From: a virus | Lineage: Duplodnaviria; Caudoviricetes | Strand: one strand, 5' to 3' | Length of the DNA stretch: 50,653 bases | IMG/VR virus record: IMGVR_UViG_3300032322_001385 | Span: 1 to 50,653 of that record | Shown here: piece by piece, positions 4,170 through 32,994 of the stretch | Layout: each line of letters opens with the position of its first letter | Numbering within the stretch: the first letter of the stretch is position 1 | Program-made: the position numbers and the translations under genes | Notes under the pieces: generated by a model | What the model saw: the letters and a program-made list of their open reading frames with translations, nothing else | Told to the model about the DNA's origin: nothing | Databases searched by the model: none

Positions 4170-4194
4170 CATGGGAAGCGACTAAGGGGCGAGC

Positions 4195-6629: not shown

Positions 6630-6634
6630 TCGCC

Positions 6635-8062: not shown

Positions 8063-8066
8063 TCCC

Positions 8067-10037: not shown

Positions 10038-10075
10038 CCATGAACATCTCCGCGACCTATCACTCCCACTGACCC

Positions 10076-10738: not shown

Positions 10739-10875
10739 TGGCAGTCCGTTCCAAGACCGGCGTCGCCCGCATTGACCACCAGCCCGGCCCGCCCAAGACC
10801 ACCAGGCAAGGCCAAGGCCAGCGTTCACGCCCCCGCCGCCGCGGCCGCAAAAAGCTGCGCGGTCAAGGCCGCTAG
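10738..10875 (+). CDS. 45-aa highly basic protein MAVRSKTGVARIDHQPGPPKTTRQGQGQRSRPRRRGRKKLRGQGR (not in the ORF track)
   Basis: ATG overlaps the upstream TAA (TAATG); fills the gap before the sheath gene. Confidence 0.75.
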   Translation: MAVRSKTGVARIDHQPGPPKTTRQGQGQRSRPRRRGRKKLRGQGR

Positions 10876-10905
10876 ACTCAACCCGACAGGAGGACTCTCC
10901 TACCC

Positions 10906-12321: not shown

Positions 12322-12332
12322 GGACCTGACCC

Positions 12333-12842
12333 ATGGCACAAATCCCCCGCGTTCTAAAGAACTTCAGCCTGTTCGTTGACGGTCGCGGCCTTGCCGGCAC
12401 CATCTCAACGCTGACCTTGCCCACCCTTACCACCAAGATGGAGGAGTTCCGTGGCGGCGGCATGGACGCCCCCGTGGACATCGACATGGGCATGGAGAAG
12501 CTGGAAACCAGCTTCGAACTGTTCGACTACGAGGAGAACGTCCTCAGCCTCTACGGCCTGGCCGATGGCGCCGCCACCCAGGTGACTGCCCGGGGTGCTC
12601 TCCGTCGTGATGGCGAAGCCGCTGTGCCGATGATCGTCAACATGACCGGCGTCATTAAGGAGATGGATCCCGGCGACTGGGCTGCCGGCGATCAGACCTC
12701 GATGACCTGCTCGATGTCGCTCCGCTACCTGAAGATCACGATCGGCGGCCGCGAGGTTGTCGAGATCGACAAGGTCAACATGATCCGCCGCATCAATGGC
12801 GCTGATCAGCTCGAGTCCATCCGCAACGCAATCGGAGTCTGA
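12333..12842 (+). CDS. Major tail tube protein (P2 FII-like)
   Basis: PRVLKNFSLFVDG, KMEEFRGGGMDAPVDIDMGMEKLE, EIDKVNMIRRING. Confidence 0.97.
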   Translation: MAQIPRVLKNFSLFVDGRGLAGTISTLTLPTLTTKMEEFRGGGMDAPVDIDMGMEKLETSFELFDYEENVLSLYGLADGAATQVTARGALRRDGEAAVPMIVNMTGVIKEMDPGDWAAGDQTSMTCSMSLRYLKITIGGREVVEIDKVNMIRRINGADQLESIRNAIGV

Positions 12843-12847
12843 TCTGA

Positions 12848-13123
12848 ATGGCTGGCAAGAACCTGCACCCGAACACCGCCAAGATCGACCTTGACTTCCC
12901 GATCACTGTGTCGGGCGTCGAGGTGTCTCACCTGATCATGCGCCGCCCCAAGGTGCGCGATGACCTGGCGGCATCCAAGTCTGGCGGCAGCGACGAGGAC
13001 AAGGCGGTGTTCCTGGTAGCCAACCTCTGCGAGGTGGCGCCTGAAGACTTGATGGATGTCGACGCTGCTGACTGGAGCAAGCTGGAGCGGCAGGTCCAAA
13101 CTTTCAGACAGGCCAGGTCCTAG
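12848..13123 (+). CDS. Tail assembly chaperone (gpE/gp41-like)
   Basis: LDFPITVSG...MRRPKVRD...LVANLCEV...MDVDAADW; between tube and tape measure. Confidence 0.9.
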   Translation: MAGKNLHPNTAKIDLDFPITVSGVEVSHLIMRRPKVRDDLAASKSGGSDEDKAVFLVANLCEVAPEDLMDVDAADWSKLERQVQTFRQARS

Positions 13124-13278
13124 AAGACCGGCTGAGGCAGGCGATCATCGTCCTGTCGAAGCTGACCAACTGGGGCCTGGCCGAAGTGCTCGACCTGGAG
13201 ACAGATGAGTTCTGGGCCTACTTCAAGCAAGCCCAGATCGTTCAGACTGAGATCAACAAGCAGGTGGCAAGCAAATGA
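13102..13278 (+). CDS. gpE'-like C-terminal extension read in the -1 frame (FQTGQVLEDRLRQAIIVLSKLTNWGLAEVLDLETDEFWAYFKQAQIVQTEINKQVASK)
   Basis: Open -1 frame with no ATG, ending in TGA that overlaps the tape measure ATG; W..AEV.DL...EFW resembles P2 GpE'. Confidence 0.75.
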   Translation, partial: FQTGQVLEDRLRQAIIVLSKLTNWGLAEVLDLETDEFWAYFKQAQIVQTEINKQVASK

Positions 13279-15266
13279 TCGGCGGCGGTGCGCAGAAGAT
13301 CACGGTTGAGATCGGCGGCAAGATTGCCGCCAGTCTCGGCGCGTCGCTCCGTTCCGCTCAGACTCAGGTCAGCAGCTTCGGGCGGAACGTTAACCGCAAG
13401 CTGAATGATGCGGCGATCGCTGGCCGCAAGGGCTTCAAGGGGATCTTCGACAATGCGCTCTGGCAGCAGGCCGCGGCCGGCGCTGCAGCGATCGGTGTCG
13501 GCATGGCGGCCAGCGTGCGCGTGGCGGCCACCTTCGAAGGCGTGCTGACGGAGATCGGCAAGACCGCCAACGCCAGCCAGGGTGAGCTAAAGACGCTGAG
13601 CGGCGAGATCCTCAAGCTCTCCAGCCGGAGCACCACCAACCTGGGCCCGGCCAAGCTGGCCGAGGGCATCCAAGACCTGGTTGCCCAGGGCCTGGAGTTG
13701 AAGGACGCAACCGCGTCGATCGAGACGCTCGGGCGAGTGGCGACCGCCACCGGGTCAGATCTGCTCGACGTGACCAAGACCGGCTTCCAGCTGCAGAACG
13801 CGCTGAAGATCCGTCCGACGGAGCTCAAGGCGACGTTCGATGCGCTGGCCTTCGCCGGCAAGCAGGGCGCCTTCGAGCTGCGGGACATGGCGCAGTTCAT
13901 GCCGACCATCGCTGCAGCTGCCGGCAGCCTGGGGATCCAGGGCCGCGAGGGTGCGGTGAGCCTGGCGGCGATGATGCAGATGGTGCGAAAGGATGCGCCT
14001 GACGCGGGCCAGGCCAGCACCAGGCTGACCGACGCAATGCTGAAGCTGACCGCGCCGGATGCGGTGAAGCGGTTCGCCAAGTTCGGCGTCAATATCGAGC
14101 AGGTGCTGAAGGACGCGCGGAAGAAGGGCGTCAACCCGATGGAGGCTGCACTGGATCAGCTGCAGCGCGTCACCGGCGGCGACGTGTTCAAGCTCTCGCA
14201 GATTTTCGGCGACAAGGAAGCCAAGTTGGCCCTGATGTCGCTGATGAAGTATCGGAAGGAGTACGAGAAGCTGAAGGGCGAAGCAGGCGGATCGGCCGCG
14301 GCCGGCACCGTCGACAAGGACTATGAGCGCTCGATCAAAACCTTTGCCGGCACGCTCGCGAGCTTCCAGAACTCATCGCAGCGGCTTGGCATCGCGGTCG
14401 GCAATGCACTCCTGCCACCCCTGACGCGGATGGCCGAGGTCATCACGCCGATTGTTGAAGGCATCGCCAACTGGGCAGCGGTCAACCCCGGCCTGGCCAA
14501 GAACATCGTCGCGATCGGCGCGGTCCTTTCCGGCCTAACCCTGGCGCTGCCCGTGATCGCTGGCGTGGTCGGCGCGATCGGCGTACTCGGGGGGCCTGTC
14601 ACGTGGACAATCCTCGGGATCGGCGCAGCGATCGCTTTGGTCGTCGCCAACTGGGGCACGATCAAAACCGCAGCAGCTGCAGCATTCCAAGGTGTGACCT
14701 CACTCTGGGGCAGCTTTACAACCTGGATCGGCAACGTCTTCAAGCAAGCGGTGGGCATCATCCGTCAGTGGGGGCCCAAGGTGCTCGGCGTGATGTTCCC
14801 GATCCCGGGGATGATTATCCGGATGTTCAGCGGCAGCAACATCGGGCAGCGGATCATCACCTCGATCATCGATGGCCTCAAGGCCAGGTTCGGCGCGCTG
14901 GTTGGCTGGGTCCGTGGCGCATGGAGCAACATCTCCGGCATCTTCGGCGGCACTGCGCCGGCCGCTTCTGCTACTGGTCAGCCGGCTACACCCCCCGGCC
15001 GCGCAGCTGGCGGCAAGGTCAACGCCGGCCAGCCCTACGTCGTCGGCGAGCGGCGCCGTGAGCTGTTCGTGCCCGGCATGGATGGAGCGATCATCCCCCG
15101 CATCGCCAGGCCCGCCACGGGCGGCGGCGGTGTCACTATCCACGCTCCCGTTACGATCCATGCAGGCGGCGGCGACGCAATGGCGATCCGCGATCAGGTG
15201 CGCATGGCCTTCGAGGATCTGATCGCTCGCGCCTACGGCGACTACCGGGTGGCGCTCAATGACTAA
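13275..15266 (+). CDS. Tail tape measure protein (TP901-type core)
   Basis: 663 aa, Ala/Gly-rich; AGKQGAFELRDMAQFMP core; hydrophobic segment; RAAGGKVNAGQPYVVGE C-terminus. Confidence 0.95.
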   Translation: MIGGGAQKITVEIGGKIAASLGASLRSAQTQVSSFGRNVNRKLNDAAIAGRKGFKGIFDNALWQQAAAGAAAIGVGMAASVRVAATFEGVLTEIGKTANASQGELKTLSGEILKLSSRSTTNLGPAKLAEGIQDLVAQGLELKDATASIETLGRVATATGSDLLDVTKTGFQLQNALKIRPTELKATFDALAFAGKQGAFELRDMAQFMPTIAAAAGSLGIQGREGAVSLAAMMQMVRKDAPDAGQASTRLTDAMLKLTAPDAVKRFAKFGVNIEQVLKDARKKGVNPMEAALDQLQRVTGGDVFKLSQIFGDKEAKLALMSLMKYRKEYEKLKGEAGGSAAAGTVDKDYERSIKTFAGTLASFQNSSQRLGIAVGNALLPPLTRMAEVITPIVEGIANWAAVNPGLAKNIVAIGAVLSGLTLALPVIAGVVGAIGVLGGPVTWTILGIGAAIALVVANWGTIKTAAAAAFQGVTSLWGSFTTWIGNVFKQAVGIIRQWGPKVLGVMFPIPGMIIRMFSGSNIGQRIITSIIDGLKARFGALVGWVRGAWSNISGIFGGTAPAASATGQPATPPGRAAGGKVNAGQPYVVGERRRELFVPGMDGAIIPRIARPATGGGGVTIHAPVTIHAGGGDAMAIRDQVRMAFEDLIARAYGDYRVALND

Positions 15267-16209
15267 GCCGCTCTTCCAGCTCGGCAGCTTCCAGTTCGAT
15301 CTGCCGAACGGCGTCCCGCAGACGCTCGACCGCACGGCCGAGTTCCGCTGGGAGAGCCAGGAGCGGCTGCTGCGCGATCCAGCGGTGCAGTTCCTCGGGC
15401 CCGGCAGCCAGGAGATCACCCTCGACGGCCAGCTGTTCCCCGGCTTCTCCGGCCGCCAGAGCACGATGGAGACGCTGCGCGAGCTCGCCACCCAGGGCCA
15501 GCCGCAGATGCTCACCGACGGCCTTGGCCGCGTCTACGGCAAGTGGGCGATCAGGCAGATCCGCGAGGGCCTCGGCACCTTCGCCCCTGGCGGCGGCGCC
15601 AGACAGATCGGCTTCAGCATCAGCCTGGTCCGCTACGTCGAGGACAACCCGGGCCAGTCCGCCAGCCCACTGGCGCTGGCGTTCAGTTCCGCACCAGACT
15701 TTGGCATCAGCTCAGCACTCTCTAGCGGATTTACCGGCATTGGTTCAGCATTCGATGTCGCAGCATGGGCAAAGACCAACCCGTTGGCAGTAACCGCGCA
15801 GAACGCTGGGTTCAGCCTGGGGCAACTCGGCGGCATCGCTCGATCAGTTGGTAACGGCAACTACGTGAGCGCTGCATTAGGAGCCTTCGGCATCGCTGGC
15901 CTTAACCTCAATCAGAGCAACGCATGGACGCAGCTCGGCATCGATACCGTTGGCATCCTCAGCAACATGGCCCAAGGCCGCGGCGCACCGACCATGGCAG
16001 TGCTGTTGGAGACGCTCCGGCCCGTGAGCTACCAGACCATGCAACAGCTGGCCGGCAGCGTCGGTGGTGCTGACGGCATTCAGAACCTGGCGCGTGATGC
16101 GGCAACCATCGTCACCATGCTGGACGTTGATCCATTCGTGACGGCTGACGTGCGGCAGGTGCTGCAGGGCGTCTCCGTGCTCAGCTCGTCCTATGCCGTG
16201 ACGCCATGA
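15259..16209 (+). CDS. P2 gpU-like tail protein with a ~185-aa C-terminal extension
   Basis: LFQLGSFQF...RW..QERL..PAVQFLGPG.QEITLDG..FP...LTDGLGRVYGKWAI gpU domain. Confidence 0.88.
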   Translation: MTKPLFQLGSFQFDLPNGVPQTLDRTAEFRWESQERLLRDPAVQFLGPGSQEITLDGQLFPGFSGRQSTMETLRELATQGQPQMLTDGLGRVYGKWAIRQIREGLGTFAPGGGARQIGFSISLVRYVEDNPGQSASPLALAFSSAPDFGISSALSSGFTGIGSAFDVAAWAKTNPLAVTAQNAGFSLGQLGGIARSVGNGNYVSAALGAFGIAGLNLNQSNAWTQLGIDTVGILSNMAQGRGAPTMAVLLETLRPVSYQTMQQLAGSVGGADGIQNLARDAATIVTMLDVDPFVTADVRQVLQGVSVLSSSYAVTP

Positions 16210-16451
16210 GCCAGCTCTACGTCACCCGCCAGTTCGACGAGCTCGATGAGATCTGCTGGCGCTACTACGGCCGCACGCAGCAGACCGTCGAGGCGGTGAT
16301 GCTGGCGAACCCCAACCTCGCCGAGCTCATGCCGATCCTGCCCGGCGGCGTGACGATCCTGCTGCCTGATCTGCCGGCGCCGAGCACCAGCGAGACGGTC
16401 CGCATCTGGGATCCGAGCCCGACCGCAACCCCTGGCACTGGAGCAGCATGA
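16206..16451 (+). CDS. Tail protein X (LysM-like)
   Basis: YVTRQFDELDEICWRYYG...VEAVMLANPNLA...LPGGVTILLPDL. Confidence 0.93.
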   Translation: MSQLYVTRQFDELDEICWRYYGRTQQTVEAVMLANPNLAELMPILPGGVTILLPDLPAPSTSETVRIWDPSPTATPGTGAA

Positions 16452-17842
16452 GCACGCCAGGCTTCAGGATCGAGGCGAACGGCGGCGACATCACCCAGCT
16501 GGTCGCGGATCGGCTCGTCAGCCTGCGCATCACCGACCAGGCGGGGCAGCAGAGCGACAGCCTCGAGATCACCCTCGACGACCGCGACAAGCGCATCCCC
16601 GTCGCCAACAGCGGCACCTGGATCCGCGTCTGGCTGGGCTACAGCACCGGCGGCCGCACGCCCGTCTACATGGGCGCCTTCGCCGTCGATGAGGTGGAGC
16701 TCAGCATGGGCTCGCGCTCGATGGTGATCAAGGCGACCGCGAGCAACACCGCGCCAACGCTGGTCAAGGAGCAGAAGACGAAGAGCTGGCACAACACCAC
16801 GCTCGGGCAGATCGTGCAGGAGATCGCCCAGCGCAACAACCTCACCACGGTCCTCAAGGGCAACTTAGCCAGCACGCAGATCAAGCACGAGGACCAAACC
16901 AACGAGAGCGACCAGAGCTTCCTCACCCGCCTGGCCGAGAAGTACCGCGCGACCATCAAGCCCGCCGACGGGCGCCTGGTGGTGGTGCCCCGGGGCAGCA
17001 ATGACAACGCCGGCAACGTCACCATCAAGCAGGAGGAGGTCACCAGCTGGCGCGCGACGCTGAAGAACCGTGGCGCCTATGGCGCGGTGAAAGCGAAGTG
17101 GCTCGATCGATCCGTCAACAAGGAGAAGGTCTACACCGCTGGCGAGTCGGGCGGCTCGCTGCCGGCCTTCGAGGAGAAACAGCTGTTCAAGACCCAGGCC
17201 GAGGCGCAGAAGGCGGCCGACAGCCGGCTGCAGTCGCTGCGCGCGGGCGAGGTGCGCATCAGCCTGCAGATGCCAGGATGGCCGGATGTGAACGCCGAGG
17301 GCCTGGTGACGCTCACCGGCTTCCGCGAATATGTCGACGGCACCTGGAACGTGAAGACCGTCACGCACGACCTCACCGGCTCCGGCTATGTGACGACCGT
17401 CGACTGCGGCACGCAGGGCGAAGAGAGCAGCGACTGGAGCACCGGCCGCGACAGCCAGGGCCGCTTAATTGCAGGCGGCACAAAGGGCGTGATCGCGCGC
17501 ACCGGCAGCAGCGGCGACAGCACCGGACCACACCTAGATGCACGGTGGGCAGACAAGCGACGTATCACCGCAGCTGATGCCGATCGATACCTGCGCATCA
17601 ATGGCAGGGCCCCCAGTTCCTTCGGCGTCACCAGCGGTTACGGGCCCCGCAATTTGTTTGGCCGCACCTTCCACTACGGCATTGACTTCGGCACTCCAGC
17701 AGGTTCATCTATCACCCTGATCAACGGCGCGACCTATACCAGCAATCTTGGATACACCGGCGCCGGCGGCTATGCCGTTCAGATCAATACCCCCGAAGGA
17801 CCTATGCGGCTACTGCACCTGCAGGCAGGGTCCGCCAAGTGA
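16448..17842 (+). CDS. Baseplate hub/late control protein D fused to a circularly permuted M23 peptidase-like domain
   Basis: gpD motifs SLRITDQAGQQSDSLEITLDD and DQTNESDQSFLTRLA; C-terminus has TGSSGDSTGPHLD before TSGYGPR...HYGIDFG...LLHL. Confidence 0.9.
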   Translation: MSTPGFRIEANGGDITQLVADRLVSLRITDQAGQQSDSLEITLDDRDKRIPVANSGTWIRVWLGYSTGGRTPVYMGAFAVDEVELSMGSRSMVIKATASNTAPTLVKEQKTKSWHNTTLGQIVQEIAQRNNLTTVLKGNLASTQIKHEDQTNESDQSFLTRLAEKYRATIKPADGRLVVVPRGSNDNAGNVTIKQEEVTSWRATLKNRGAYGAVKAKWLDRSVNKEKVYTAGESGGSLPAFEEKQLFKTQAEAQKAADSRLQSLRAGEVRISLQMPGWPDVNAEGLVTLTGFREYVDGTWNVKTVTHDLTGSGYVTTVDCGTQGEESSDWSTGRDSQGRLIAGGTKGVIARTGSSGDSTGPHLDARWADKRRITAADADRYLRINGRAPSSFGVTSGYGPRNLFGRTFHYGIDFGTPAGSSITLINGATYTSNLGYTGAGGYAVQINTPEGPMRLLHLQAGSAK

Positions 17843-17893
17843 ATGCTTTGCATTTGCAGTTGAACTGCAGCTAAACTGCAGTTTGCGGAAGCC

Positions 17894-18181
17894 TTGCATG
17901 TGGCAGATCCAAGTGGCGGCAATACTGGCTGGAAAGGCCGACTTGGTGATCTGTCGGTCGAATTGATTGCTGTCGGCACTATCGCATTGGTCGGCACCTG
18001 CATCCGGGTGTGGGCTGGAATGGATGTAATCCAAACGCAGATCAACAACCTAGTTAAGAACGACAACCAGCAGGACACACGGATCGAGACTGTACGAGGC
18101 GAGGTAAACAACCTAAGGATTCAGGTTGGCATCATCCGTGCTCAAATGGGCTCAGGTCCATCGGGATATGGCCGGCCATGA
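17894..18181 (+). CDS. Single-TM plus coiled-coil membrane protein, possible holin/antiholin (start uncertain)
   Basis: Hydrophobic LIAVGTIALVGTCIRVWAG then heptad-like region; coupled to the downstream peptidase. Confidence 0.5.
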   Translation: MHVADPSGGNTGWKGRLGDLSVELIAVGTIALVGTCIRVWAGMDVIQTQINNLVKNDNQQDTRIETVRGEVNNLRIQVGIIRAQMGSGPSGYGRP

Positions 18182-18879
18182 TTAATGACCTGATCCCTTA
18201 CTTCCAGCACTGGAAGGATCTGCCGCATCAACGTGCCGCCATCACGCAGCTGTGGCAGGCAGTACCTGAGAGCCTGAAGCAACCTGAAAGCAACTGGGTG
18301 CAGACCTGGAAAGCAGCCGGGAAACAAGAGCAGCCGCGCACGCTGAGCAACCCAATCCAGGTGCGCTATTTCAGCCAGCGCGACAGCAGCACTGAGCACG
18401 CGCTTCGGATGTGCTTCAGCAGCTCCTGCGCCATGCTGCTCGAAACGCTCAAGCCTGGGACGTTGGCCGGGCCCAACGGCGACGATGCCTACCTGGGCCG
18501 CGTGCTGCGCTACGGCGACACCACTGAGGCGACGAGCCAGATCAAGGCGCTGCAGAGCTACGGCGTCGAAGCGCACATGGTGCGCAACGCCAGCTGGAAG
18601 ACGATCGAAAGCCAGATCGACCAGGGCATCCCGGTGCCGATCGGCATCCTTCACAAGGGCCCCGTTGGCGCACCGACTGGCGGCGGCCACTGGATCTGCG
18701 CCATCGGCTACACCGACGACGCGATCATCGTCCACGATCCTTTCGGCGACCTGGATCTGCTCACCGGCCGCTACGTCAACAACTGGGGCGCCCGGCTGCG
18801 CTACTCCCGCCGCAACCTCGGCCCGCGGTGGATGGTTGAAGGGCCCGCAACCGGCTGGGCCATAGTGGCCGAACCCTGA
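18178..18879 (+). CDS. C39-like cysteine peptidase, putative endolysin
   Basis: VRYFSQRD...RMCFSSSCAMLL (Cys), GGGHWICAIGY (His), IVHDPFG (Asp). Confidence 0.85.
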   Translation: MINDLIPYFQHWKDLPHQRAAITQLWQAVPESLKQPESNWVQTWKAAGKQEQPRTLSNPIQVRYFSQRDSSTEHALRMCFSSSCAMLLETLKPGTLAGPNGDDAYLGRVLRYGDTTEATSQIKALQSYGVEAHMVRNASWKTIESQIDQGIPVPIGILHKGPVGAPTGGGHWICAIGYTDDAIIVHDPFGDLDLLTGRYVNNWGARLRYSRRNLGPRWMVEGPATGWAIVAEP

Positions 18880-18889
18880 GAACACATCC

Positions 18890-19441
18890 ATGCGCCTGGC
18901 TGATCTCGTGATGGTCTATCCCGATCGACTGCCGCCGGCGCAATGCCAGGAGCTCATCCAGGGCTTCGAGGCCCGCGCTGCTGATCAGGTGATCCGCCAG
19001 GGTGAGGGCAACGCGCCACGGTTCACCGAGCTCAACCTGACGCAGTGCTGGCCGGAGGGCCATGAGCTGGCGTTCGGCGCCATCTTGCCGGTGTTCGAGA
19101 CCTACAGCCGCGACCTGCAGATCAACACCGTGCAGTGGCCGGCAGAGCTGGCGTTCGAGGAGCTGCGGATCAAGCGCTACTGGCCCGGCGGCGAGGACGA
19201 GTTCCCCGACCATGTGGACGTGGGCGATCACGCCAGCGCCAGGCGGTTCGTGGCAGCGATGCTCTACCTCAACGATGTCGAGGATGGCGGCGCCACCGAG
19301 TTTCCGCTGTGGGGCCAGCAGATCCAGCCACGCGCTGGATCGGTGGTGGTGTTCCCGCCGCTGTGGCCCTGGCTGCACGCCGGCCGGCCGCCGCAGTCGG
19401 GCCCGAAGTACATCCTCAGCACATACCTCCACTACACCTAA
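18890..19441 (+). CDS. 2OG-Fe(II) oxygenase (prolyl-4-hydroxylase-like)
   Basis: HVD...LYLNDVEDGGATEF...VVFPP.WPWLHAG...KYILSTY: HxD...H triad and distal Lys. Confidence 0.93.
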   Translation: MRLADLVMVYPDRLPPAQCQELIQGFEARAADQVIRQGEGNAPRFTELNLTQCWPEGHELAFGAILPVFETYSRDLQINTVQWPAELAFEELRIKRYWPGGEDEFPDHVDVGDHASARRFVAAMLYLNDVEDGGATEFPLWGQQIQPRAGSVVVFPPLWPWLHAGRPPQSGPKYILSTYLHYT

Positions 19442-19456
19442 CCTGGAGAGAACGAC

Positions 19457-19651
19457 ATGATCTCAATGGAACACCTTCCTCAATACGTCGCCCTCGCTGT
19501 CGCCATTCACAGCGTGGCGCTGATCATCGTGAACCTCACCCCCACCCCGAAGGACGACGAGGCGCTCGGGACCATCAGCGCCCTGGCGGTGAAGGCCTAC
19601 CGCGCGCTGGAGATCGTCGCCGGCATCGTCACCCCCCTGGCGAAGCGCTGA
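19457..19651 (+). CDS. Small membrane protein, putative holin
   Basis: 64 aa, hydrophobic helix then IVNLTPTPKDD; directly upstream of the lysozyme. Confidence 0.65.
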   Translation: MISMEHLPQYVALAVAIHSVALIIVNLTPTPKDDEALGTISALAVKAYRALEIVAGIVTPLAKR

Positions 19652-20088
19652 TGATCAACCGCGCCGCGATGACGCGCCAGCTCCGCCTCCACGAGGGGGA
19701 GCGGCTGAAGCCCTATCGCTGCACCGCCGGCAAGCTGACGATCGGCGTGGGCCGCAACCTCGAGGACCGTGGCATCACGGCAGAGGAGTCGGCCTACTTG
19801 CTCGCCAACGACATCAGCCGGGAGGAGCGCGAGCTGCTCCGGGCACTGCCCTGGGCGGCGACGCTGGACGAGGTGCGCCAGCGGGTACTGCTCGACATGA
19901 GCTTCAACATGGGACTGGGCACGCTGCTGACGTTCAAGCGGACGCTGGCGGCGGTGCAGGGCGGCGAGTTCACGAAGGCCGCGGCGATGATGCTGGAATC
20001 GCGGTGGGCGGGCCAGGTGGGCGAGCGCGCGCAGCGGCTGAGCCGAATGATGGCGACAGGGCAAAATCCGCGCGAACTGCTCTCGTAG
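19651..20088 (+). CDS. Phage lysozyme (GH24/T4-lysozyme-like endolysin), 145 aa
   Basis: QLRLHEGERLKPYRCTAGKLTIGVGRNL, LLDMSFNMG, MLESRWAGQVGERAQRL; ATG overlaps holin TGA. Confidence 0.93.
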   Translation: MINRAAMTRQLRLHEGERLKPYRCTAGKLTIGVGRNLEDRGITAEESAYLLANDISREERELLRALPWAATLDEVRQRVLLDMSFNMGLGTLLTFKRTLAAVQGGEFTKAAAMMLESRWAGQVGERAQRLSRMMATGQNPRELLS

Positions 20089-20107
20089 CATGATGCAGGG
20101 ACTACTG

Positions 20108-20142
20108 AGCCCCCGGGACTGGTGGACCGGGGGCTTTTCTTT
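20108..20142 (+). terminator. Rho-independent terminator ending the late operon
   Basis: agcccccgg-10 nt loop-ccgggggct followed by tttcttt. Confidence 0.85.
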
Positions 20143-20149
20143 GCGGCGC

Positions 20150-20416
20150 TCAGCCAGGGTGGCGCGCGGTGATGTTGGGCCCAGGGCCGCCGGGCCGCTC
20201 CTCGACCTTGACCCCTTCGATTCGGGTTACGTCGAACCACTGGCTGTAGGGCATGCCATTGGCGTCCCGTGCCGCCAGCTGGATCTGATCGCAGCCGGTG
20301 AGATAGGTGGCCGATGCGACGGCAGTTCCTTCGATGCCTAGGACTGTGTCGCGGTACTTTTTGCCCAGCGTGAACTGGGTGCCGTTCAGGATGACGGTGC
20401 GGTTTTCAAGTGCCAT
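20150..20416 (-). CDS. Phage hypothetical protein (88 aa, MALENRTV...)
   Basis: LGKKYRDTVLGIEGTAVASATYLTGCDQ...WFDVTRI resembles a common small phage family; internal ATG of the 190-aa track ORF. Confidence 0.7.
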   Translation of the reverse strand: MALENRTVILNGTQFTLGKKYRDTVLGIEGTAVASATYLTGCDQIQLAARDANGMPYSQWFDVTRIEGVKVEERPGGPGPNITARHPG

Positions 20417-20475
20417 TGCAAGATGCGGATGAGGGGTGATGCCGGATTGGGTGCGGCTCCGGCGTGCCGCGGCGG

Positions 20476-20664
20476 TCAAGCCGCCAGCAGCCGGCGCACC
20501 GTGGTGCGCGAACAGCCGAGGCGATCGGCGATAACCTGCTGGGTCATGCCGGCGCGGCGCCAGCGGCGGGCACGGGCCTGGCGATCCTCCGTGGCCCAGA
20601 GCAGGACCAGCAGGGGGAGCAGTAGCAGGGCGACGGCCCAGGCGGTGAGGCAAGCGATGGACAT
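20476..20664 (-). CDS. Membrane-anchored helix-turn-helix protein
   Basis: N-terminal hydrophobic helix followed by GMTQQVIADRLGCSRTTVRRLL HTH. Confidence 0.75.
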   Translation of the reverse strand: MSIACLTAWAVALLLLPLLVLLWATEDRQARARRWRRAGMTQQVIADRLGCSRTTVRRLLAA

Positions 20665-20767
20665 GGGGCGAAATGCGATGGGGTGGTGATCGGCGGCGCG
20701 CTCGGCCGGCCGATGAACCCAAAGTAAGGGCGCAACCGTGGGGGTGCTGCGCTGGCGTAATAATCCT

Positions 20768-21931
20768 TCACACTTCCAGATCGTCGCTCACCCTCGCCAC
20801 GGCCCGCCGCGCTGCGTCGTCGATCAGGTGCGCATACCGGCTCGTCGTCTGCGTGCTCCGGTGCCCCAACAGCTGGCCCACCGTGCCCAGCGTCTGGCCG
20901 CCACTGAGCGCATAACTGGCGAACGTGTGCCGCAGGTCGTGGATCCGCAGGTCGCTCACACCAGCCTCCTGGAGCAGCGCCAGCCACAGCCGCCGGTAGC
21001 CCACCAGCGGCTTCTCTCCACTCTCGCCGGGGATCACCCACCGATTTTCGGGGAGCTGCCCCCCGATTTTCGATCGCAGCTCCCCGATTATCGCCAGCGC
21101 CCGATCGCTCAGCTGCACCTCGCTGGCCCCGGTCTTACCTCGCTCTGCCGGCACCCGCAGCACGCCCCGGGCCCAGTCGATCTCCGACCACTCAGCGCAC
21201 ATCACCTCCCGCAGCCTGGCCCCAGTCAGCAGCAGCAGCCGCACCAGCTGCGCGAACCGCCACCGCATCGACAGCGGCCCCTGGGCCTCCCACCGGGCCA
21301 GGGCCGCCCGCAGCTGGGTCAGCTCCTGTGCGCTCAGGTATCGCCGCCGCGCCGTCTCCCGATGCGGCTTCACCCCCTTGCATGGGTTGCTGTTGTGCGG
21401 CCGCCACCCCCACTGCTCCGCCAGTCGCATCGCGACGCTCAGCGTCCGCAGCGCACGGTTGGCGGTGATCGGCTGCCGGTGCGCGGCGTGCCACTTGGCG
21501 ACGTCCTCATGCCTGACGGCCGCCACCTTCGTGGTGGGCCCCAGGGCCGGCAGCAGATGCACTCGCCAGTTCGCCTCGTCGCATCCTCCGCTGCGCTTCT
21601 TCGAGGCGTGACGCTCCATGTGCTCGCGCGACAGATCCGCCAGCGTGGCGGCCAGCCGTGTGGCGCGTCGTTCCTCCGTCGGCCGCCTTCCCTCCCGCAC
21701 CTGGGCGAGGGCCTCGCGCGCGAGGCGCCGCGCATCATCTGGGGTGAGCTCTACCGGCGTGCCCAACTTCATCTCCAGCTGGCGGCCGTCCAGCTGCCGG
21801 AACCGCAGGTAATAGGTGCGGGCCCCCGAGGGCAGCACCAGCAGGCAGAGCCCGGGCACCAGGCTGTCGTTCAGCCGGTAGCGCTGGGCCCGGGGGGCGG
21901 CTCCCTCAACGAGCGTCTTGGTCAGCTTCAT
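20768..21931 (-). CDS. int: Tyrosine integrase with N-terminal arm-binding domain (387 aa)
   Basis: MKLTKTLVE...DSLVPGLCLLVLPSGARTYYLRFR arm domain; catalytic TGAR, K, HDLRH, LLGH, RYAH all present. Confidence 0.96.
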   Translation of the reverse strand: MKLTKTLVEGAAPRAQRYRLNDSLVPGLCLLVLPSGARTYYLRFRQLDGRQLEMKLGTPVELTPDDARRLAREALAQVREGRRPTEERRATRLAATLADLSREHMERHASKKRSGGCDEANWRVHLLPALGPTTKVAAVRHEDVAKWHAAHRQPITANRALRTLSVAMRLAEQWGWRPHNSNPCKGVKPHRETARRRYLSAQELTQLRAALARWEAQGPLSMRWRFAQLVRLLLLTGARLREVMCAEWSEIDWARGVLRVPAERGKTGASEVQLSDRALAIIGELRSKIGGQLPENRWVIPGESGEKPLVGYRRLWLALLQEAGVSDLRIHDLRHTFASYALSGGQTLGTVGQLLGHRSTQTTSRYAHLIDDAARRAVARVSDDLEV

Positions 21932-21932
21932 T

Positions 21933-21953
21933 GTTCCCACACCTTTCCCACAA
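21933..21953 (+). promoter_or_regulatory. Putative integrase arm-type site, left arm of attP
   Basis: gttcccacacctttcccacaa, 20/21 identical to 22175-22195; internally a tandem TTCCCACA. Confidence 0.7.
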
Positions 21954-22056
21954 AACTCCGGGAGCGGGAGGGATACCACGGGAAGCGGCGTGAGGCCATG
22001 CTCAGCAAAATCAAGGGGAAAGGAAAGCGCGGGATCCCCGAGGATAGCGGAACGCA

Positions 22057-22104
22057 TGACTTTTAATCAGGGGGTCCTGGGTTCGAGTCCCAGCGCGCTC
22101 ACCA
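22057..22104 (+). other. attP core: 3' half of a tRNA-Lys(UUU) gene
   Basis: tga-cttttaa-tca anticodon arm, ctggg-ttcgagt-cccag T arm, cgcgctc-a-cca acceptor strand; no D arm or 5' strand upstream; next to int. Confidence 0.92.
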
Positions 22105-22174
22105 CCCAAAAGCCATCCACGTCAACGACTTACAGCCGCGACAGCGTGACAGGCCTGCCGGCCTTGGCAGGATC

Positions 22175-22204
22175 GTTCCCACACCATTCCCACAAGCCCA
22201 CAAA
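22175..22204 (+). promoter_or_regulatory. Putative integrase arm-type sites, right arm of attP
   Basis: gttcccacaccattcccacaagcccacaaa: three CCCACA units. Confidence 0.7.
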
Positions 22205-22233
22205 AAAAGCCCCCGGTCATCACTCCGGGGGCT
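22202..22233 (-). terminator. Rho-independent terminator of the leftward early operon
   Basis: Minus strand agcccccgg-agtgatga-ccgggggct then a T run. Confidence 0.85.
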
Positions 22234-22259
22234 GCCGCTTTCTCGTCTGCTCATCCATT

Positions 22260-22466
22260 CTATCTTTGGCGGAACTCGATCTCGGCTGCCATCTCAACAG
22301 CCACCTGGTGTGCCACCTGCTGATCATCCTGAGCAAAGCCCCAGTGCACCACCCGGCCGTCATGCACGAACGGCATGAACCGGGTGGTCTGCCCCCAACC
22401 AATCGGCTGCACGCCGAAGCATGGCCAGGTCTGCCCGGCGTAGCGAGGCACTTCAGCCAGGATCAC
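22260..22466 (-). CDS. Hypothetical protein (68 aa, GTG start)
   Basis: GTGA overlap with the upstream stop; last gene before the terminator. Confidence 0.6.
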   Translation of the reverse strand: MILAEVPRYAGQTWPCFGVQPIGWGQTTRFMPFVHDGRVVHWGFAQDDQQVAHQVAVEMAAEIEFRQR

Positions 22467-22720
22467 AGCTCCAGCCCCCGCATGTGCTGTTCCACCAGGT
22501 CGAGCAGGTCCTGGGGCACGATCGGGAACCGGGGCACCCACCGGCTCGGGTCCCACCCGAAGATGGTCCAACGCGAGGTCTGGTTCAGCAGGGTGCGGAT
22601 GTTGTTCCGCTTCCGCCAGTGCACCAGCATCGGGTCGATGGTGCCCGCCGGCTGCCGCGTGATCGTCCACCGTGGGCTGGCCTGAGGATCTGTGTCCTCG
22701 TGGATGAGGTGCTGCATCAT
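22463..22720 (-). CDS. Hypothetical protein
   Basis: Coupled overlaps at both ends within the leftward operon. Confidence 0.6.
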   Translation of the reverse strand: MMQHLIHEDTDPQASPRWTITRQPAGTIDPMLVHWRKRNNIRTLLNQTSRWTIFGWDPSRWVPRFPIVPQDLLDLVEQHMRGLEL

Positions 22721-22947
22721 TCCAACTCCTGCAGAGGCAAGCGGCTGAGGTGCATCTGCGGCAGATCCCAGCTCACTCCGTCGCCATCGAGGACGTAGTA
22801 GTGCGGGCAGCCATTGGCCATAAAGGTGCCGACCACCTTCCCGGTGTGACCTTCAGGCCACCCCTGCACTAGCGCTGTGTTGCGCACATACACCGTGTCG
22901 CCTGGCACGAACCGCCACGGCTGCGCATTCAGCAGTCGCGTGTTCAT
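22717..22947 (-). CDS. Hypothetical protein, SH3/KOW-like beta barrel
   Basis: WRFVPGDTVYVR...GCPHYYVLD; ATGA overlaps. Confidence 0.65.
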   Translation of the reverse strand: MNTRLLNAQPWRFVPGDTVYVRNTALVQGWPEGHTGKVVGTFMANGCPHYYVLDGDGVSWDLPQMHLSRLPLQELE

Positions 22948-23150
22948 CGGATTGCCCTCACCTCAGTGGTCAGACCGAACGCCATGCGCAGCAGCTGCTG
23001 ACGTTCGATCGCTTCATCAATCGTCGGCACCACCCAGGCGACGTCGCGGTCGCTGTCGGCAGCGAGCACCGGCGGCACCACCTGACCGGGTTGGCCGAGG
23101 CCTTGCGGTGCGGTGATCCACTGCTGGCCGCGGCGGAGTGCGTAGCTCAC
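22944..23150 (-). CDS. Hypothetical protein (68 aa, GTG start)
   Basis: GTGA overlap with the upstream 52-aa gene. Confidence 0.55.
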   Translation of the reverse strand: MSYALRRGQQWITAPQGLGQPGQVVPPVLAADSDRDVAWVVPTIDEAIERQQLLRMAFGLTTEVRAIR

Positions 23151-23305
23151 AGCTTCACCCCGTCCTTCTTGAGCTGAGCGCAGGCGCTGAGCGCGCCGGC
23201 CTTGCAGTCCCTGATCGTCAGGTCGGTCAGGGTGCTGGTGAGCGCGTACCAGAACCCGGCAAGCAGGGTCGCGCATAAGGTCGCGCTGATAAAAGTCGTC
23301 CGCAT
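23147..23305 (-). CDS. 52-aa membrane protein MRTTFISATLCATLLAGFWYALTSTLTDLTIRDCKAGALSACAQLKKDGVKL (not in track)
   Basis: ATG at 23305, TM helix and DC.AG...AC motif; stop overlaps the next GTG. Confidence 0.65.
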   Translation of the reverse strand: MRTTFISATLCATLLAGFWYALTSTLTDLTIRDCKAGALSACAQLKKDGVKL

Positions 23306-23332
23306 GGTAGATGGGTGGATAGTGGACAGGAA

Positions 23333-23348
23333 GGGCCCCGAAGGGCCC
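23333..23348 (-). terminator. C(UUCG)G hairpin, weak terminator or mRNA stabiliser
   Basis: Minus strand gggccc-ttcg-gggccc followed by ttcct, intergenic. Confidence 0.55.
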
Positions 23349-23356
23349 GTAATGGA

Positions 23357-23587
23357 TCAGTCCGCCTTCAGGTAGGCGAAGCTCATGTCGAGCTCGGCGT
23401 CGTACACCGTGTCGTCTTCAATCCGGCAGAGGTTGTGCTCGATGCAGAAGAGCACCGCGCGATTGACTGACACGCAATCGCCGCTGATCGTGAAGCGATC
23501 GGCAGTGCGGAAGGTCCACTCGATCACGACGCCGCAGCCTTTGCGAATCTCAGCTTCGATCTCAGTGCCGAGTTGCTGGAGGTTCAT
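23357..23587 (-). CDS. Hypothetical protein
   Basis: 76-aa ORF with its own upstream intergenic region. Confidence 0.65.
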   Translation of the reverse strand: MNLQQLGTEIEAEIRKGCGVVIEWTFRTADRFTISGDCVSVNRAVLFCIEHNLCRIEDDTVYDAELDMSFAYLKAD

Positions 23588-23721
23588 GGCCTATTCCGGG
23601 GTGGTGGGCGTCTCCGCCCTTGCCTTGCAATCATCCCCCCGCCAAACCCCAACCGTTATGCTGTTGTAACAATCGTTCACACACTCGCAGCCGCTACGAT
23701 CGCCTTAGCGGCTCCTCTCGG

Positions 23722-24021
23722 ATGCAGGCACGGATCGATGGCACCGAGTTCATCCCAGCCCGCACCGCACGCATCCGATTCCGGCAGGCCATCTTCGAGG
23801 CCTGGAACTGGCGCTGCGCATACTGCGGCGACACCGCCGAGAGCCTCGATCACATCCAGCCAAAAACACACGGCGGCATGACGGTGTCGCGCAACCTGGC
23901 GCCCTCGTGCCTTCCTTGCAACCGTCGCAAGGGGCACAGGGAGGTGTTCAGCTGGTGGCGGGAGCAGCCCTTTTGGACCGAGATCGGTCAAGCTCAGCTC
24001 ATCGACTGGCTCACCTTGTAG
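23722..24021 (+). CDS. HNH endonuclease (99 aa)
   Basis: CAYCG...SLDHIQPKTHGG...NLAPSCLPCNRRKG. Confidence 0.93.
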   Translation: MQARIDGTEFIPARTARIRFRQAIFEAWNWRCAYCGDTAESLDHIQPKTHGGMTVSRNLAPSCLPCNRRKGHREVFSWWREQPFWTEIGQAQLIDWLTL

Positions 24022-24400
24022 AGGTCGCAGTCGGCGGCGCATCAACGTGAGCCCAAATCTTGCGGTTGACGATGCGAGAGACATGGGCCGGGTGGACGCC
24101 GTACACAGCAGCGATGGCGCGGTGGGACGCACCGTCCTTGGAGAGGCGGCGCATATCACGGATGTTTTGTTCAGTGAGAACGGCGCATCCGTTGCGCTCA
24201 CCTTGCGTGGATGGCAGCTTGCGTCCGGGTTCCGGCCCAGGCTTGGGCTTGGACTTGGGCTTGGGGAAAAAAAGGCTCTCCAGGGTGCGCTGAGCAAACT
24301 TGCAGCTGATGCACCGCCGCCAACGGTGGGTGCCATCGGCGCGGTGTTCAGTCACTACAACCCGGAGCGTGCGGCGTCCGTTGCATTTAGGGCAGTCCAT
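24011..24400 (-). CDS. Zn-ribbon (NrdR N-terminal-like) plus HTH DNA-binding protein
   Basis: MDCPKC...RWRRCISCKFAQRTLE; PK-rich linker; GERNGCAVLTE...IAAVYGVHPAHVSRIVNRKIWAHV. Confidence 0.75.
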   Translation of the reverse strand: MDCPKCNGRRTLRVVVTEHRADGTHRWRRCISCKFAQRTLESLFFPKPKSKPKPGPEPGRKLPSTQGERNGCAVLTEQNIRDMRRLSKDGASHRAIAAVYGVHPAHVSRIVNRKIWAHVDAPPTATSTR

Positions 24401-24518
24401 CAAATTGAGGTAATAGTTGCTGGGCCTCCGATGCCTCACGCTGCGGCAGCCGCCCACCCCTGGCGCGGTTGCGGAGACGCTCGCCCTTACGGGTGGAGCC
24501 GACCCGGTGGTGGTCAAA

Positions 24519-25097
24519 TTACTGGGGTAGGCGGCTGGCCTCGTGTTCAAGCCACGCGGCAGCTTCCCATGCGGTGTTGACCACGTGGTCGGAGTATTGC
24601 CGCCCCTTCAACCATTTCGCCACCTCGCGGATTACATCGCAAGATGTTTCCTCCCAAGTGCCTCCTAATCCCTTGATCAACCGATGCTTGACCCGCTCCA
24701 CCAGCGAGCCGGCGGGGACTGGGGTGGTGGCTTCGGGCATGAGGTCGTCGCGGTACTGCTTTGCGGCCTGAATCTGATCTTCCGTCATCCGCTCAAATTG
24801 ATCCATCCCGAGGTATTGCCGGATGGGCTGCCCTATTGGGCTGCTGCCGCCCAGGTGATTCCACAAAACCCAAAGCAGCGGGGCGGTATTTGCCAGGTCG
24901 TGCGTGACCGGCGCTGGTATGAACTCGCGGACTTCCGTCATCGGCTCCAGCGCCCTGGGCATCGCCGCCTCCAGCAGATTCAGCCGGTGATCCTGCTCCA
25001 TGCGCCAATCCACGGCGGTGTTGTGCATGGTCTGCAATTCATGGGTCAGCGCCTGCAGCGCCTCGACGCGGGCGCGGAGTTCTTCAATCTCGGTCAT
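24519..25097 (-). CDS. Hypothetical protein with N-terminal coiled coil
   Basis: MTEIEELRARVEALQ start with ATGA overlap. Confidence 0.65.
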   Translation of the reverse strand: MTEIEELRARVEALQALTHELQTMHNTAVDWRMEQDHRLNLLEAAMPRALEPMTEVREFIPAPVTHDLANTAPLLWVLWNHLGGSSPIGQPIRQYLGMDQFERMTEDQIQAAKQYRDDLMPEATTPVPAGSLVERVKHRLIKGLGGTWEETSCDVIREVAKWLKGRQYSDHVVNTAWEAAAWLEHEASRLPQ

Positions 25098-32924: not shown

Positions 32925-32994
32925 CGCATTGTTACCACCGACGTGCAGCAGGGACACTCTGCCCGTAGCGTTCATGGGCACCAACGCACGCCCC

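What the first reader, a model, noticed from the sequence alone, without database searches (positions are those of the whole stretch)
20768..22204. attP targets a tRNA-Lys that looks alphaproteobacterial, in a phage that otherwise looks cyanobacterial
Seen: a 48-bp tRNA 3' half with encoded CCA whose acceptor strand CGCGCTC implies a host gene starting GAGCGCG, with anticodon arm TGA-CTTTTAA-TCA. The integrase has all catalytic residues. From recall (unverified): GAGCGCG...CGCGCTCACCA is the alphaproteobacterial tRNA-Lys(UUU) type, while picocyanobacterial tRNA-Lys starts GGGTCGC with a CGG-CTTTTAA-CCG arm and usually no encoded CCA. Inference: either a cross-phylum capture of a whole int-attP cassette, which might then lack a target in the host, or a phage whose real host or host range is unexpected.
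Basis: partly seen in the sequence, partly recalled or inferred. Interest (0 to 1): 0.75.

Follow-up and report, generated by a model that had tools for sequence, protein, structure and literature searches.

The report
Phage attP matching an alphaproteobacterial tRNA-Lys
This is an ordinary-looking phage integration site, but its tRNA-derived core points to an alphaproteobacterial host, while the phage's closest named relatives and its DNA composition point to freshwater picocyanobacteria.

Summary
Window 22057-22104 is a 48-bp 3' part of a tRNA-Lys(UUU) gene with encoded CCA, not a whole tRNA. It lies beside a complete tyrosine integrase (20768-21931, minus strand). Two pairs of TTCCCACA repeats flank it, 242 bp apart. 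Together this is a lambda-type attP (21934-22194) in a complete 50.6-kb temperate myovirus.

A scan of one genome each from 185,579 species found the 45-nt core exactly in 14 places. All are Alphaproteobacteria and none is cyanobacterial.

The integrase and arm scaffold is native to a large freshwater phage group. Only the roughly 48-bp tRNA core differs between members. The second core type is an initiator-tRNA 3' part carrying the A29:U41 mark, which a paper reports for all alphaproteobacteria. So capture of a whole int-attP cassette is not supported.

The "cyanobacterial look" is partly real:
- TerL nests among Synechococcus prophage TerLs.
- The replication genes resemble those of cyanophage S-LBS1.
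- Tetranucleotide usage matches picocyanobacterial phages.
- Labels of binned metagenome genomes conflict with each other.

No integrated copy was found, and I could not read any cyanobacterial tRNA. My best reading is that the phage lysogenises an alphaproteobacterium (about 0.75), although its lineage has picocyanobacterial kin.

The parts
20768..21931 (-). Tyrosine integrase, 387 aa. It has an N-terminal arm-binding domain and a C-terminal catalytic domain.
   Evidence: Pfam Arm-DNA-bind_3 1.2e-15 and Phage_integrase 2.3e-21. R / H-x-x-R / H / Y align to XerA 5hxy. Relatives at 68-88% identity match residues 1-387.
21934..21952 (+). P-arm: two direct TTCCCACA repeats 11 bp apart, abutting the integrase start codon. 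I infer they are arm-type integrase binding sites.
   Evidence: TTCCCACA occurs only 4 times in the window, against 1.04 expected; 4 of 100 shuffles reach 4. The same pair sits at the same place in relatives.
22057..22104 (+). attP core: the 3' part of tRNA-Lys(UUU), from the anticodon stem through the T arm and acceptor strand to the encoded CCA.
   Evidence: The 45-mer 22057-22101 is exact in 14 alphaproteobacterial loci and nowhere else among 185,579 species genomes. The core is conserved in 7 distinct attP sequences.
22176..22194 (+). P'-arm: a second pair of direct TTCCCACA repeats 11 bp apart, 242 bp from the first pair.
   Evidence: The spacing is 242-244 bp in 12 distinct related attP sequences, 10 of them exactly 242, and 196 bp in 2 short-core variants.
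21934..22194 (+). The whole attP: P arm, 104 bp, 48-bp core, 71 bp, P' arm.
   Evidence: Assembled. Recombination itself is inferred and was not observed.
20476..20664 (-). Small helix-turn-helix protein (62 aa) just downstream of the integrase. It may be a regulator or directionality factor; this is inferred from position only.
   Evidence: Pfam HTH_23 / HTH_7 at about 1e-6. Function not tested.

Best explanation
This is the functional attP of a temperate myovirus. The integrase binds the four TTCCCACA arm sites through its N-terminal domain and the 48-bp core through its catalytic and core-binding part. It then recombines the core with the identical 3' part of a host tRNA-Lys(UUU) gene. Because the phage copy carries everything from the anticodon stem to CCA, the tRNA gene is rebuilt at the junction next to phage position 22105. 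The partial copy remains beside the integrase at the far end of the prophage.

The integrase and arm scaffold belongs to this freshwater phage group. Within the group only the tRNA core has been exchanged, between tRNA-Lys and initiator tRNA. Both core types carry alphaproteobacterial sequences. So the bacterium that this phage lysogenises is most likely an alphaproteobacterium whose tRNA-Lys matches that of Methylocystis and a few other lineages. This holds even though the head and replication genes have picocyanobacterial relatives.

Shown: the anatomy, its conservation, and the tRNA matches. Inferred: recombination, which sites are bound, and the host.
For: Anatomy:
- establish the parts.
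- The core is kept while the flanks diverge in 7 distinct Lys-type attPs: 6 identical, 1 with one mismatch.
- The geometry is fixed at 242 bp.

tRNA-Lys core:
- The exact 45-mer occurs in 14 loci, all Alphaproteobacteria: Methylocystis and Methylocystaceae, Microvirga, Ferrovibrionaceae, Hyphomicrobiales and uncultured alphaproteobacterial genomes.
- 12 of the 14 are full tRNA-Lys genes starting GAGCGCG.
- The two Microvirga copies are partial. One lies between a helicase/IS66 region and a host-like gene, so an alphaproteobacterium appears to use the same segment as an island-border repeat.

Second core type in relatives (integrase 68-77% identical):
- It is an initiator-tRNA 3' part with T at position 41.
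- It matches within 2 mismatches in 201 of 401 sampled Alphaproteobacteria, many exactly.
- Passages of PMC5389676 state that the A29:U41 pair occurs in all alphaproteobacteria and a few mycoplasmas.

Core exchange and binning:
- L168 (Lys core) and L038 (Met core) have homologous flanks on both sides of the core.
- Two integrases about 90% identical to the same Lys-type phage are labelled Pseudomonadota in one binned genome and Cyanobacteriota in another, so bin labels are unreliable here.
Against: - No integrated copy was seen. All 12 close metagenome integrase loci whose upstream region I read (11 of them 71-84% identical; L142, 75%, carries a short core plus a full tRNA-fMet) are attP-type rather than prophage junctions, with both arms read in 8. 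All 3 viral contigs holding the core are also attP. The full-tRNA 55-mer is in 0 viral contigs.
- None of the 13 species genomes that hold the exact core carries a close relative. Across all 13, TerL did not reach E 1e-20 in 10, is 33% identical in G002, and was not queried in G003 or G004. Integrase, queried in only 5 of the 13 (G001-G005), is at most 39% identical.
- In 401 sampled Alphaproteobacteria the best TerL is 50-51% identical, or 45-48% by BLASTP.
- All 6 organism-named TerL relatives in the top 120 are cyanobacterial, including one at 89% in a Synechococcaceae binned genome.
- In the TerL tree the window's clade sits inside a 76-row clade with all 5 named cyanobacterial prophage TerLs included in the tree, and the alphaproteobacterial ones lie outside.
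- The primase-polymerase is 58% identical to cyanophage S-LBS1 over 99% of its length. The helicase, VRR-NUC gene and several small ORFs are shared too.
- Tetranucleotide usage correlates 0.86-0.94 with four picocyanobacterial phage or prophage references. It correlates 0.18-0.75 with 20 alphaproteobacterial genome pieces and 0.38-0.68 with 11 exact-core genomes. One non-cyanobacterial control also reaches 0.87.
- The Lys core is rare even within the class: 10 of 401 genomes within 3 mismatches.
- Cyanobacterial tRNA genes themselves could not be read.
Confidence: 0.65

Rival explanations
1. The phage really infects and lysogenises freshwater picocyanobacteria (Cyanobium or Synechococcus). Either those hosts have tRNA genes near enough to the cores, or integration needs only the shared anticodon-loop stretch.
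For: TerL nests among cyanobacterial prophage TerLs. The replication module is S-LBS1-like. Tetranucleotide usage correlates 0.86-0.94 with S-LBS1, S-CBS1, S-CBS3 and a provirus whose TerL is 80% identical to that of Synechococcus CBW1107. Three of four organism labels on binned TerL or integrase contigs are cyanobacterial.
Against: No cyanobacterial record among 185,579 species genomes holds the exact 45-mer. A hybrid tRNA needs a 5' acceptor strand GAGCGCG. The relatives' second core carries the A29:U41 mark, reported only for alphaproteobacteria and a few mycoplasmas. Two independent cores both pointing to the wrong phylum is unlikely for sites under visible selection. The composition measure also gave 0.87 for an Acidithiobacillus phage. 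Bin labels conflict for near-identical integrases.
Confidence: 0.17
2. A cyanophage captured a complete integrase-attP cassette from an alphaproteobacterial phage, and the cassette may have no target in the present host.
For: The integrase region has the highest GC of the window, 0.693 in 20001-22000 against about 0.64 elsewhere. The best integrase hits among sequenced phages are proteobacterial at 37-38%.
Against: Integrase relatives of 58-88% identity fill the same phage group. They sit in the same genomic position between the lysozyme and early genes, with flanking homology on both sides. The arm repeats and 242-bp geometry are shared by Lys-type and Met-type members. Integrase homologues in 5 of the exact-core alphaproteobacterial genomes are at most 39% identical. 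The 48-bp core is conserved across diverged members, which argues for use rather than decay.
Confidence: 0.05
3. The stretch is a phage-encoded working tRNA-Lys gene, as the ARAGORN call suggests, or a chance tRNA-like fragment with no role in integration.
For: ARAGORN reports a tRNA-Lys at 22025-22104.
Against: The call is 80 nt long with the anticodon at position 38. Rfam scores it below the cut-off with no D arm and broken acceptor pairs. ARAGORN finds no tRNA in the Lys-type relatives L027-L029. The fragment sits precisely between arm repeats next to an integrase.
Confidence: 0.02

Closest known systems
Lambda-type (arm-binding) tyrosine integrases that target the 3' part of tRNA genes, as in P4, P22, HP1 and many genomic islands (general knowledge, recalled)
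   Same: A two-domain integrase with an Arm-DNA-bind_3 N-terminus. Repeated arm sites lie on both sides of a core that copies the 3' part of a tRNA gene, so the gene is rebuilt after insertion.
   Different: No attL/attR or attB was seen for this phage. The arm repeat TTCCCACA and the fixed 242-bp spacing are specific to this group. Within one scaffold the core alone has been exchanged between two different tRNAs.
Synechococcus phage S-LBS1, a freshwater cyanosiphovirus with an integrase (PMC6157547; passages read)
   Same: Primase-polymerase 58% identical over 99% of its length, SF2 helicase 46%, VRR-NUC 45%, and several small early ORFs. GC is similarly high, 60.2% by the paper, and tetranucleotide usage correlates at r = 0.86.
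   Different: S-LBS1 is a siphovirus. Its TerL, portal and capsid are only 28-33% identical. Its integrase is a different, shorter gene. The paper proposes a 14-bp att motif, not a tRNA.
Wolbachia phage WO and other lambda-head, P2-tail temperate myoviruses
   Same: gpA-type TerL at 45-47% and the DUF4815 baseplate protein at about 44% are the best hits among sequenced phages. The head and tail gene sets are the same.
   Different: These are distant relatives only. Unnamed environmental relatives reach 75-96%, and named cyanobacterial prophage TerLs (51-55%) are closer than WO.

Membership tests
Tyrosine recombinase / phage integrase with arm-binding domain | C-terminal catalytic domain (Pfam PF00589) | tested here: met
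   2.3e-21, residues 198-369.
Tyrosine recombinase / phage integrase with arm-binding domain | Catalytic residues R, K, H-x-x-R, H/W, Y | tested here: met
   TGARLRE, HDLRHT, LLGH and SRYAH align to the matching motifs of XerA 5hxy. The K in ERGKTG I read by eye and did not confirm by structure.
Tyrosine recombinase / phage integrase with arm-binding domain | N-terminal arm-type DNA-binding domain | tested here: met
   PF13356 at 1.2e-15, residues 3-90.
tRNA-targeting attP | Core identical to the 3' part of a host tRNA gene | tested here: met
   The 45-mer is exact in 12 full alphaproteobacterial tRNA-Lys genes.
tRNA-targeting attP | Repeated arm sites on both sides of the core | tested here: met
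   Two pairs of TTCCCACA at 21934/21945 and 22176/22187, conserved in relatives. Binding was not tested.
tRNA-targeting attP | Integrated form (attL/attR) in a host genome | tested here: not met
   No integrated form among the 12 close metagenome integrase loci whose upstream region I read (11 of them 71-84% identical; L142, 75%, has a short core plus a full tRNA-fMet), in viral contigs, or in the exact-core genomes checked (TerL in 11 of 13, integrase in 5 of 13). Logan contigs simply break at the core.
Phage of picocyanobacteria | Closest cellular relatives of hallmark genes are cyanobacterial | tested here: met
   All 6 organism-named TerL hits in the top 120 are cyanobacterial. The window's clade is nested among them in the tree. 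This was tested for TerL only.
Phage of picocyanobacteria | attP core matches a cyanobacterial tRNA | tested here: not met
   No cyanobacterial record holds the exact 45-mer. Near matches could not be tested, because no cyanobacterial genome was reachable.
Phage of picocyanobacteria | Cyanobacterium-type genes (photosynthesis genes, cyanobacterial sigma factor) | tested here: not met
   None among the 57 window ORFs scanned with Pfam. S-LBS1, S-CBS1 and S-CBS3 do carry a sigma factor.
Phage of Alphaproteobacteria | Close prophage relatives in alphaproteobacterial genomes | tested here: not met
   The best TerL is 50-51% identical in 401 sampled genomes, and no close TerL in the 11 of 13 exact-core genomes queried. 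This is a sample, not the whole class.

The most novel reading that the evidence does not exclude
A widespread freshwater lineage of temperate myoviruses descends from the same stock as Synechococcus/Cyanobium prophages and cyanosiphoviruses. It has crossed into Alphaproteobacteria, retargeting itself by exchanging only the 48-bp tRNA core inside an otherwise fixed attP scaffold. If so, composition-based and binning-based host calls for this whole group (Cyanobium) are wrong.
Probability: 0.4. Interest if true: 0.7.

Novelty: new member of a known kind. Interest (0 to 1): 0.5.

Why it matters
The site itself is textbook. The interest lies in the conflict between host signals.

The att core is the one sequence that must physically match the host. 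It points to Alphaproteobacteria for two different tRNA targets. Marker-gene kinship, k-mer composition and three of four bin labels point to picocyanobacteria.

The phage group is common: 170 TerL relatives in the viral collection. Whichever answer is right, it either documents a cross-phylum move of a temperate phage lineage or exposes a systematic error in host prediction for freshwater viromes.

The group also gives a clean natural series for studying how a tyrosine integrase changes its target. The arms and spacing stay the same while the cores differ.

Tried and rejected
**Reaching cyanobacterial genomes**
- 'of' takes no taxon name.
- Cyanobacterial plasmid loci gave only record handles without relatives.
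- So cyanobacterial tRNA-Lys and initiator tRNA were never read.
- A plasmid BLAST with a relative's tRNA-fMet gave enterobacterial-type best hits and no cyanobacteria in the 60 rows shown.

**Searches that gave no host information**
- The protein atlas gave only viral clusters for the primase.
- The DUF4815 homologue search listed 120 unnamed environmental proteins at 74-100% identity and no outgroup.
- Megablast of 15000-25000 against sequenced phages found nothing.

**Sequencing runs**
- One run holds the whole phage and may be its source. The others hold small shares.
- Laying contigs showed only that the assemblies break at the core and that other low-depth contigs share it. There was no junction.

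**Genome-derived viral records related to Synechococcus TerL (G414-G418)**
- No close integrase in any of the five. ARAGORN found no tRNA in the stretches of G414, G417 and G418 that I fetched; G415 and G416 were not scanned.

**Sequence signals that did not discriminate**
- The cyanobacterial HIP1 palindrome is not enriched: 5 observed against 4.9 expected.
- GANTC: 95 observed against 110 expected.
- Shine-Dalgarno strength with naive start calls does not separate the cyanophage and alphaproteobacterial phage controls.

**Other**
- Earlier notes of this scan were empty.
- PMC6337551 (passages read) has no bearing.
- Two literature searches found no description of this phage group. This was not an exhaustive search.
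Full report
**What the window is.** The window is a complete virus record of 50,653 bp with direct terminal repeats; the repeat is 123 bp. GC is about 64%. Pfam annotation shows a temperate myovirus:
- a P2-like baseplate, sheath, tube, tape measure, gpU and gpD (420-17842);
- lysis genes and a 2OG-Fe(II) oxygenase (18178-20088);
- a small HTH protein and the integrase on the minus strand (20476-21931);
- minus-strand early genes (RecT, a PD-(D/E)XK nuclease, SSB);
- a helicase and a primase-polymerase/VapE gene (31076-35886);
- a lambda-type head module (gpA TerL 41421-43337, portal, capsid, cement, head-tail attachment).

**The observation.** The letters at 22057-22104 are as the finding describes. 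ARAGORN forces an 80-nt tRNA-Lys(ttt) at 22025-22104 with the anticodon at position 38. Rfam gives nothing at gathering score. With the E-value threshold it scores 24.8 bits against a cut-off of 29, with the D arm missing and broken acceptor pairs. So only the 3' part of a tRNA is present.

The integrase has both expected domains, and its catalytic motifs align to XerA. Its start is most likely ATG 21931 rather than the upstream ATG 22057. Relatives align from that residue, and the first arm repeat begins 3 bp upstream.

**attP anatomy.** TTCCCACA occurs four times in the whole genome: at 21934 and 21945, and at 22176 and 22187. The expected count is 1.04, and 4 of 100 shuffles reach four. The count alone is weak evidence; the arrangement is not. 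There are two tandem pairs with an 11-bp period, one on each side of the core, 242 bp apart.

The same layout recurs in relatives. Twelve distinct related attP sequences have a spacing of 242-244 bp, ten of them exactly 242, and two short-core variants have 196 bp. I read these repeats as arm-type sites for the N-terminal domain. Binding was not tested.

**Conservation of the core.** There are seven distinct Lys-type attP sequences: the window, L027 (same as L028), L029 (same as L135/L136), L132, L133, L134 and L168. Six carry the identical 48 bp and one has a single mismatch. The flanks diverge immediately before TGA and after CCA or CCAC. This pattern indicates selection on the core.

**Whose tRNA it is.** An exact scan for the 45-mer 22057-22101 over one genome for each of 185,579 species found 14 places. 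All are Alphaproteobacteria by record title: six Methylocystis or Methylocystaceae, two in Microvirga sp. BT688, one Ferrovibrionaceae, one Hyphomicrobiales, and four uncultured Alphaproteobacteria.

Twelve of the 14 are full 76-nt tRNA-Lys(UUU) genes that begin GAGCGCG and encode CCA. The two Microvirga copies lack a 5' half. One lies between a helicase/IS66 region and a PAS-cyclase gene, and the other lies next to a TctA transporter gene. They look like border repeats of integrated elements that begin at the same base.

Within the class this tRNA variant is uncommon. Ten of 401 sampled genomes match within three mismatches, and only the centre genome matches exactly.

**The scaffold is native and only the core moves.** Integrase relatives of 58-88% identity abound in environmental data. 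In their contigs they sit in the same place as in the window, between homologues of the window's lysozyme region and its early genes.

Members whose integrase is 68-77% identical carry, at the same position in the same scaffold, a 3' part of an initiator tRNA (CAT anticodon) instead of tRNA-Lys. L168 (Lys) and L038 (Met) share homologous sequence on both sides of the core, so essentially only the tRNA segment was replaced. This argues against recent capture of a whole foreign int-attP cassette.

**The second core is also alphaproteobacterial.** Its 42-nt pattern matches within two mismatches in 201 of 401 sampled Alphaproteobacteria, with many exact matches. The tally includes G045, flagged as unpublished; the result does not depend on it.

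The core has T at position 41, that is an A29:U41 first pair in the anticodon stem. [quoted passage not shown] I did not see that paper's supplement.

**The case for a cyanobacterial phage.** This case is real and I report it in full.
- *Replication genes.* Among sequenced phages, the only full-length hit to the primase-polymerase is Synechococcus phage S-LBS1, at 58% over 99% of its length. The helicase (46%), VRR-NUC gene (45%) and several small ORFs are shared too.
- *Named TerL relatives.* In the large protein collection, TerL relatives of 75-89% identity are unnamed. All six hits that carry an organism name in the top 120 are cyanobacterial:

| Organism label | TerL identity |
|---|---|
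| Synechococcaceae binned genome (partial protein, 4.3-kb contig) | 89% |
| Cyanobacteria bacterium J06638_7 | 55% |
| Synechococcus elongatus | 53% |
| Synechococcus sp. CBW1107 | 53% |
| Synechococcus sp. CS-205 | 52% |
| Synechococcus sp. 1G10 | 51% |

- *TerL tree.* I built a FastTree of 128 TerLs. The window's 36-row clade (support 100) lies inside a 76-row clade (support 95) that holds the five named cyanobacterial TerLs included in the tree (the 478-aa Synechococcaceae fragment, P0057, fell outside the length filter). Six alphaproteobacterial genome TerLs and Rhodobacter phage RcKemmy fall outside a 116-row clade (support 97). Caveats: only the six best TerLs from a 401-genome sample represent the class, proteins outside 560-720 aa were left out, and most rows are unlabelled.
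- *Composition.* Tetranucleotide usage of the window correlates as follows:

| Reference | r with window |
|---|---|
| S-CBS1 | 0.94 |
| S-CBS3 | 0.94 |
| Provirus with TerL 80% identical to Synechococcus CBW1107 | 0.91 |
| S-LBS1 | 0.86 |
| Acidithiobacillus phage AcaML1 (non-cyanobacterial control) | 0.87 |
| Cyanophage S-2L | 0.69 |
| Acidovorax phage Alfacinha1 | 0.67 |
| Acetobacter phage phiAP1 | 0.49 |
| RcKemmy | 0.33 |
| 20 alphaproteobacterial genome pieces | 0.18-0.75 |
| 11 genomes with the exact Lys core | 0.38-0.68 |

The AcaML1 control shows that this measure is not specific.

**Bin labels conflict.** One integrase 86% identical to the window's is labelled Pseudomonadota bacterium. 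One at 81% is labelled Cyanobacteriota bacterium. One at 69% is labelled Cyanobium sp.. The first two are both 90-91% identical to the same Lys-type phage, L133/L134. So near-identical phages were binned into different phyla. Given the composition result, contigs of this group binning with Cyanobium-like genomes is expected whatever the host.

**The case against an alphaproteobacterial host.**
- No lysogen was found.
- Of the 13 species genomes with the exact core, TerL did not reach E 1e-20 in 10, is 33% identical in G002, and was not queried in G003 or G004. Integrase, queried in 5 of them (G001-G005), is at most 39% identical.
- The best TerL among 401 sampled Alphaproteobacteria is 50-51% identical.
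- All 12 close metagenome integrase loci whose upstream region I read (11 of them 71-84% identical; L142, 75%, has a short core plus a full tRNA-fMet), and all viral contigs with the core, are attP forms.
- A 55-mer spanning the host-type 5' side and the core is in no viral contig.
- Public runs gave one full holder, which may be the source, and small shares in freshwater metagenomes. Their contigs break at the core and show no junction.

**Weighing the evidence.** Kinship, composition and bin labels are indirect and are inherited from ancestry. The att core must match the host physically, because the phage half becomes part of the host's tRNA gene. It is visibly conserved. In this group two different cores both carry alphaproteobacterial sequences, one of them exact only in that class across all species genomes scanned. 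I therefore put about 0.75 on an alphaproteobacterial lysogenic host and about 0.17 on a picocyanobacterial host. The remainder goes to other readings.

The main gap is that no cyanobacterial tRNA gene could be read here. The absence of an exact match does not exclude a near match.

**Comparison and novelty.** As a mechanism this is a standard arm-binding tyrosine integrase with a tRNA-derived attP, so it is a new member of a known kind. What is unusual is the group-level picture. The attP frame is fixed while the tRNA cores are exchanged, and the host signal contradicts marker-gene, k-mer and binning signals. Two literature searches found no description of this phage group; they were not exhaustive.

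Noticed in passing
L031, L032, L036 (same as L142) and L044, upstream of the integrase: Some relatives have a truncated Met-type core of about 18-21 bp and a 196-bp arm spacing. A full-length initiator tRNA gene with the ordinary three G:C pairs follows directly after the P' arm. Integration would break the host tRNA gene, and the phage copy may replace it. The phage tRNA is closest (93.5%) to the enterobacterial type among plasmid records.
   Followed up: partly
L168 against L038 (attP regions): The two attP sequences are homologous on both sides, including a hairpin after the tRNA end. They carry different tRNA cores, Lys and Met. This is a clean exchange of only the tRNA segment.
   Followed up: partly
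window 8067-10037 (+): This 656-aa beta-helix protein (Beta_helix, NosD hits) has third-position GC of 0.62 against about 0.85 in its neighbours. The local GC dips to 0.567. It is probably a recently acquired tail spike or fibre.
   Followed up: no
window 37141-39708 (+): A ParB_N protein is followed by a PAPS-reductase/DUF3440 protein. This pairing recalls the IbrB/IbrA-like gene pairs of phages; the name is recalled and was not tested.
   Followed up: no
window 22208-22233: A G+C-rich hairpin (stem AGCCCCCGG / CCGGGGGCT) preceded by a run of A sits just outside the P' arm. A similar hairpin is present in relatives L029 and L133. It is probably a terminator between the attP and the early genes.
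   Followed up: no
window 22072-22101, run X1: Public contig assemblies of the run that holds the phage break inside the core. One contig ends at 22101 and the next starts at 22072, at depth of about 320. Several contigs at depth 3-10 share the core and continue into tRNA 5' halves. Bacteria with a near-identical tRNA-Lys are therefore present in that sample at about one fiftieth of the phage's depth.
   Followed up: partly
L010 and L015 (Microvirga sp. BT688): This genome has two partial copies of the same tRNA-Lys 3' part, starting at the same base as the phage core and followed by near-identical downstream sequence. One is next to a helicase/IS66 region. They are probably borders of integrated elements unrelated to this phage.
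   Followed up: partly
window 23620-24021 (+): An HNH endonuclease gene lies on the plus strand among minus-strand early genes.
   Followed up: no
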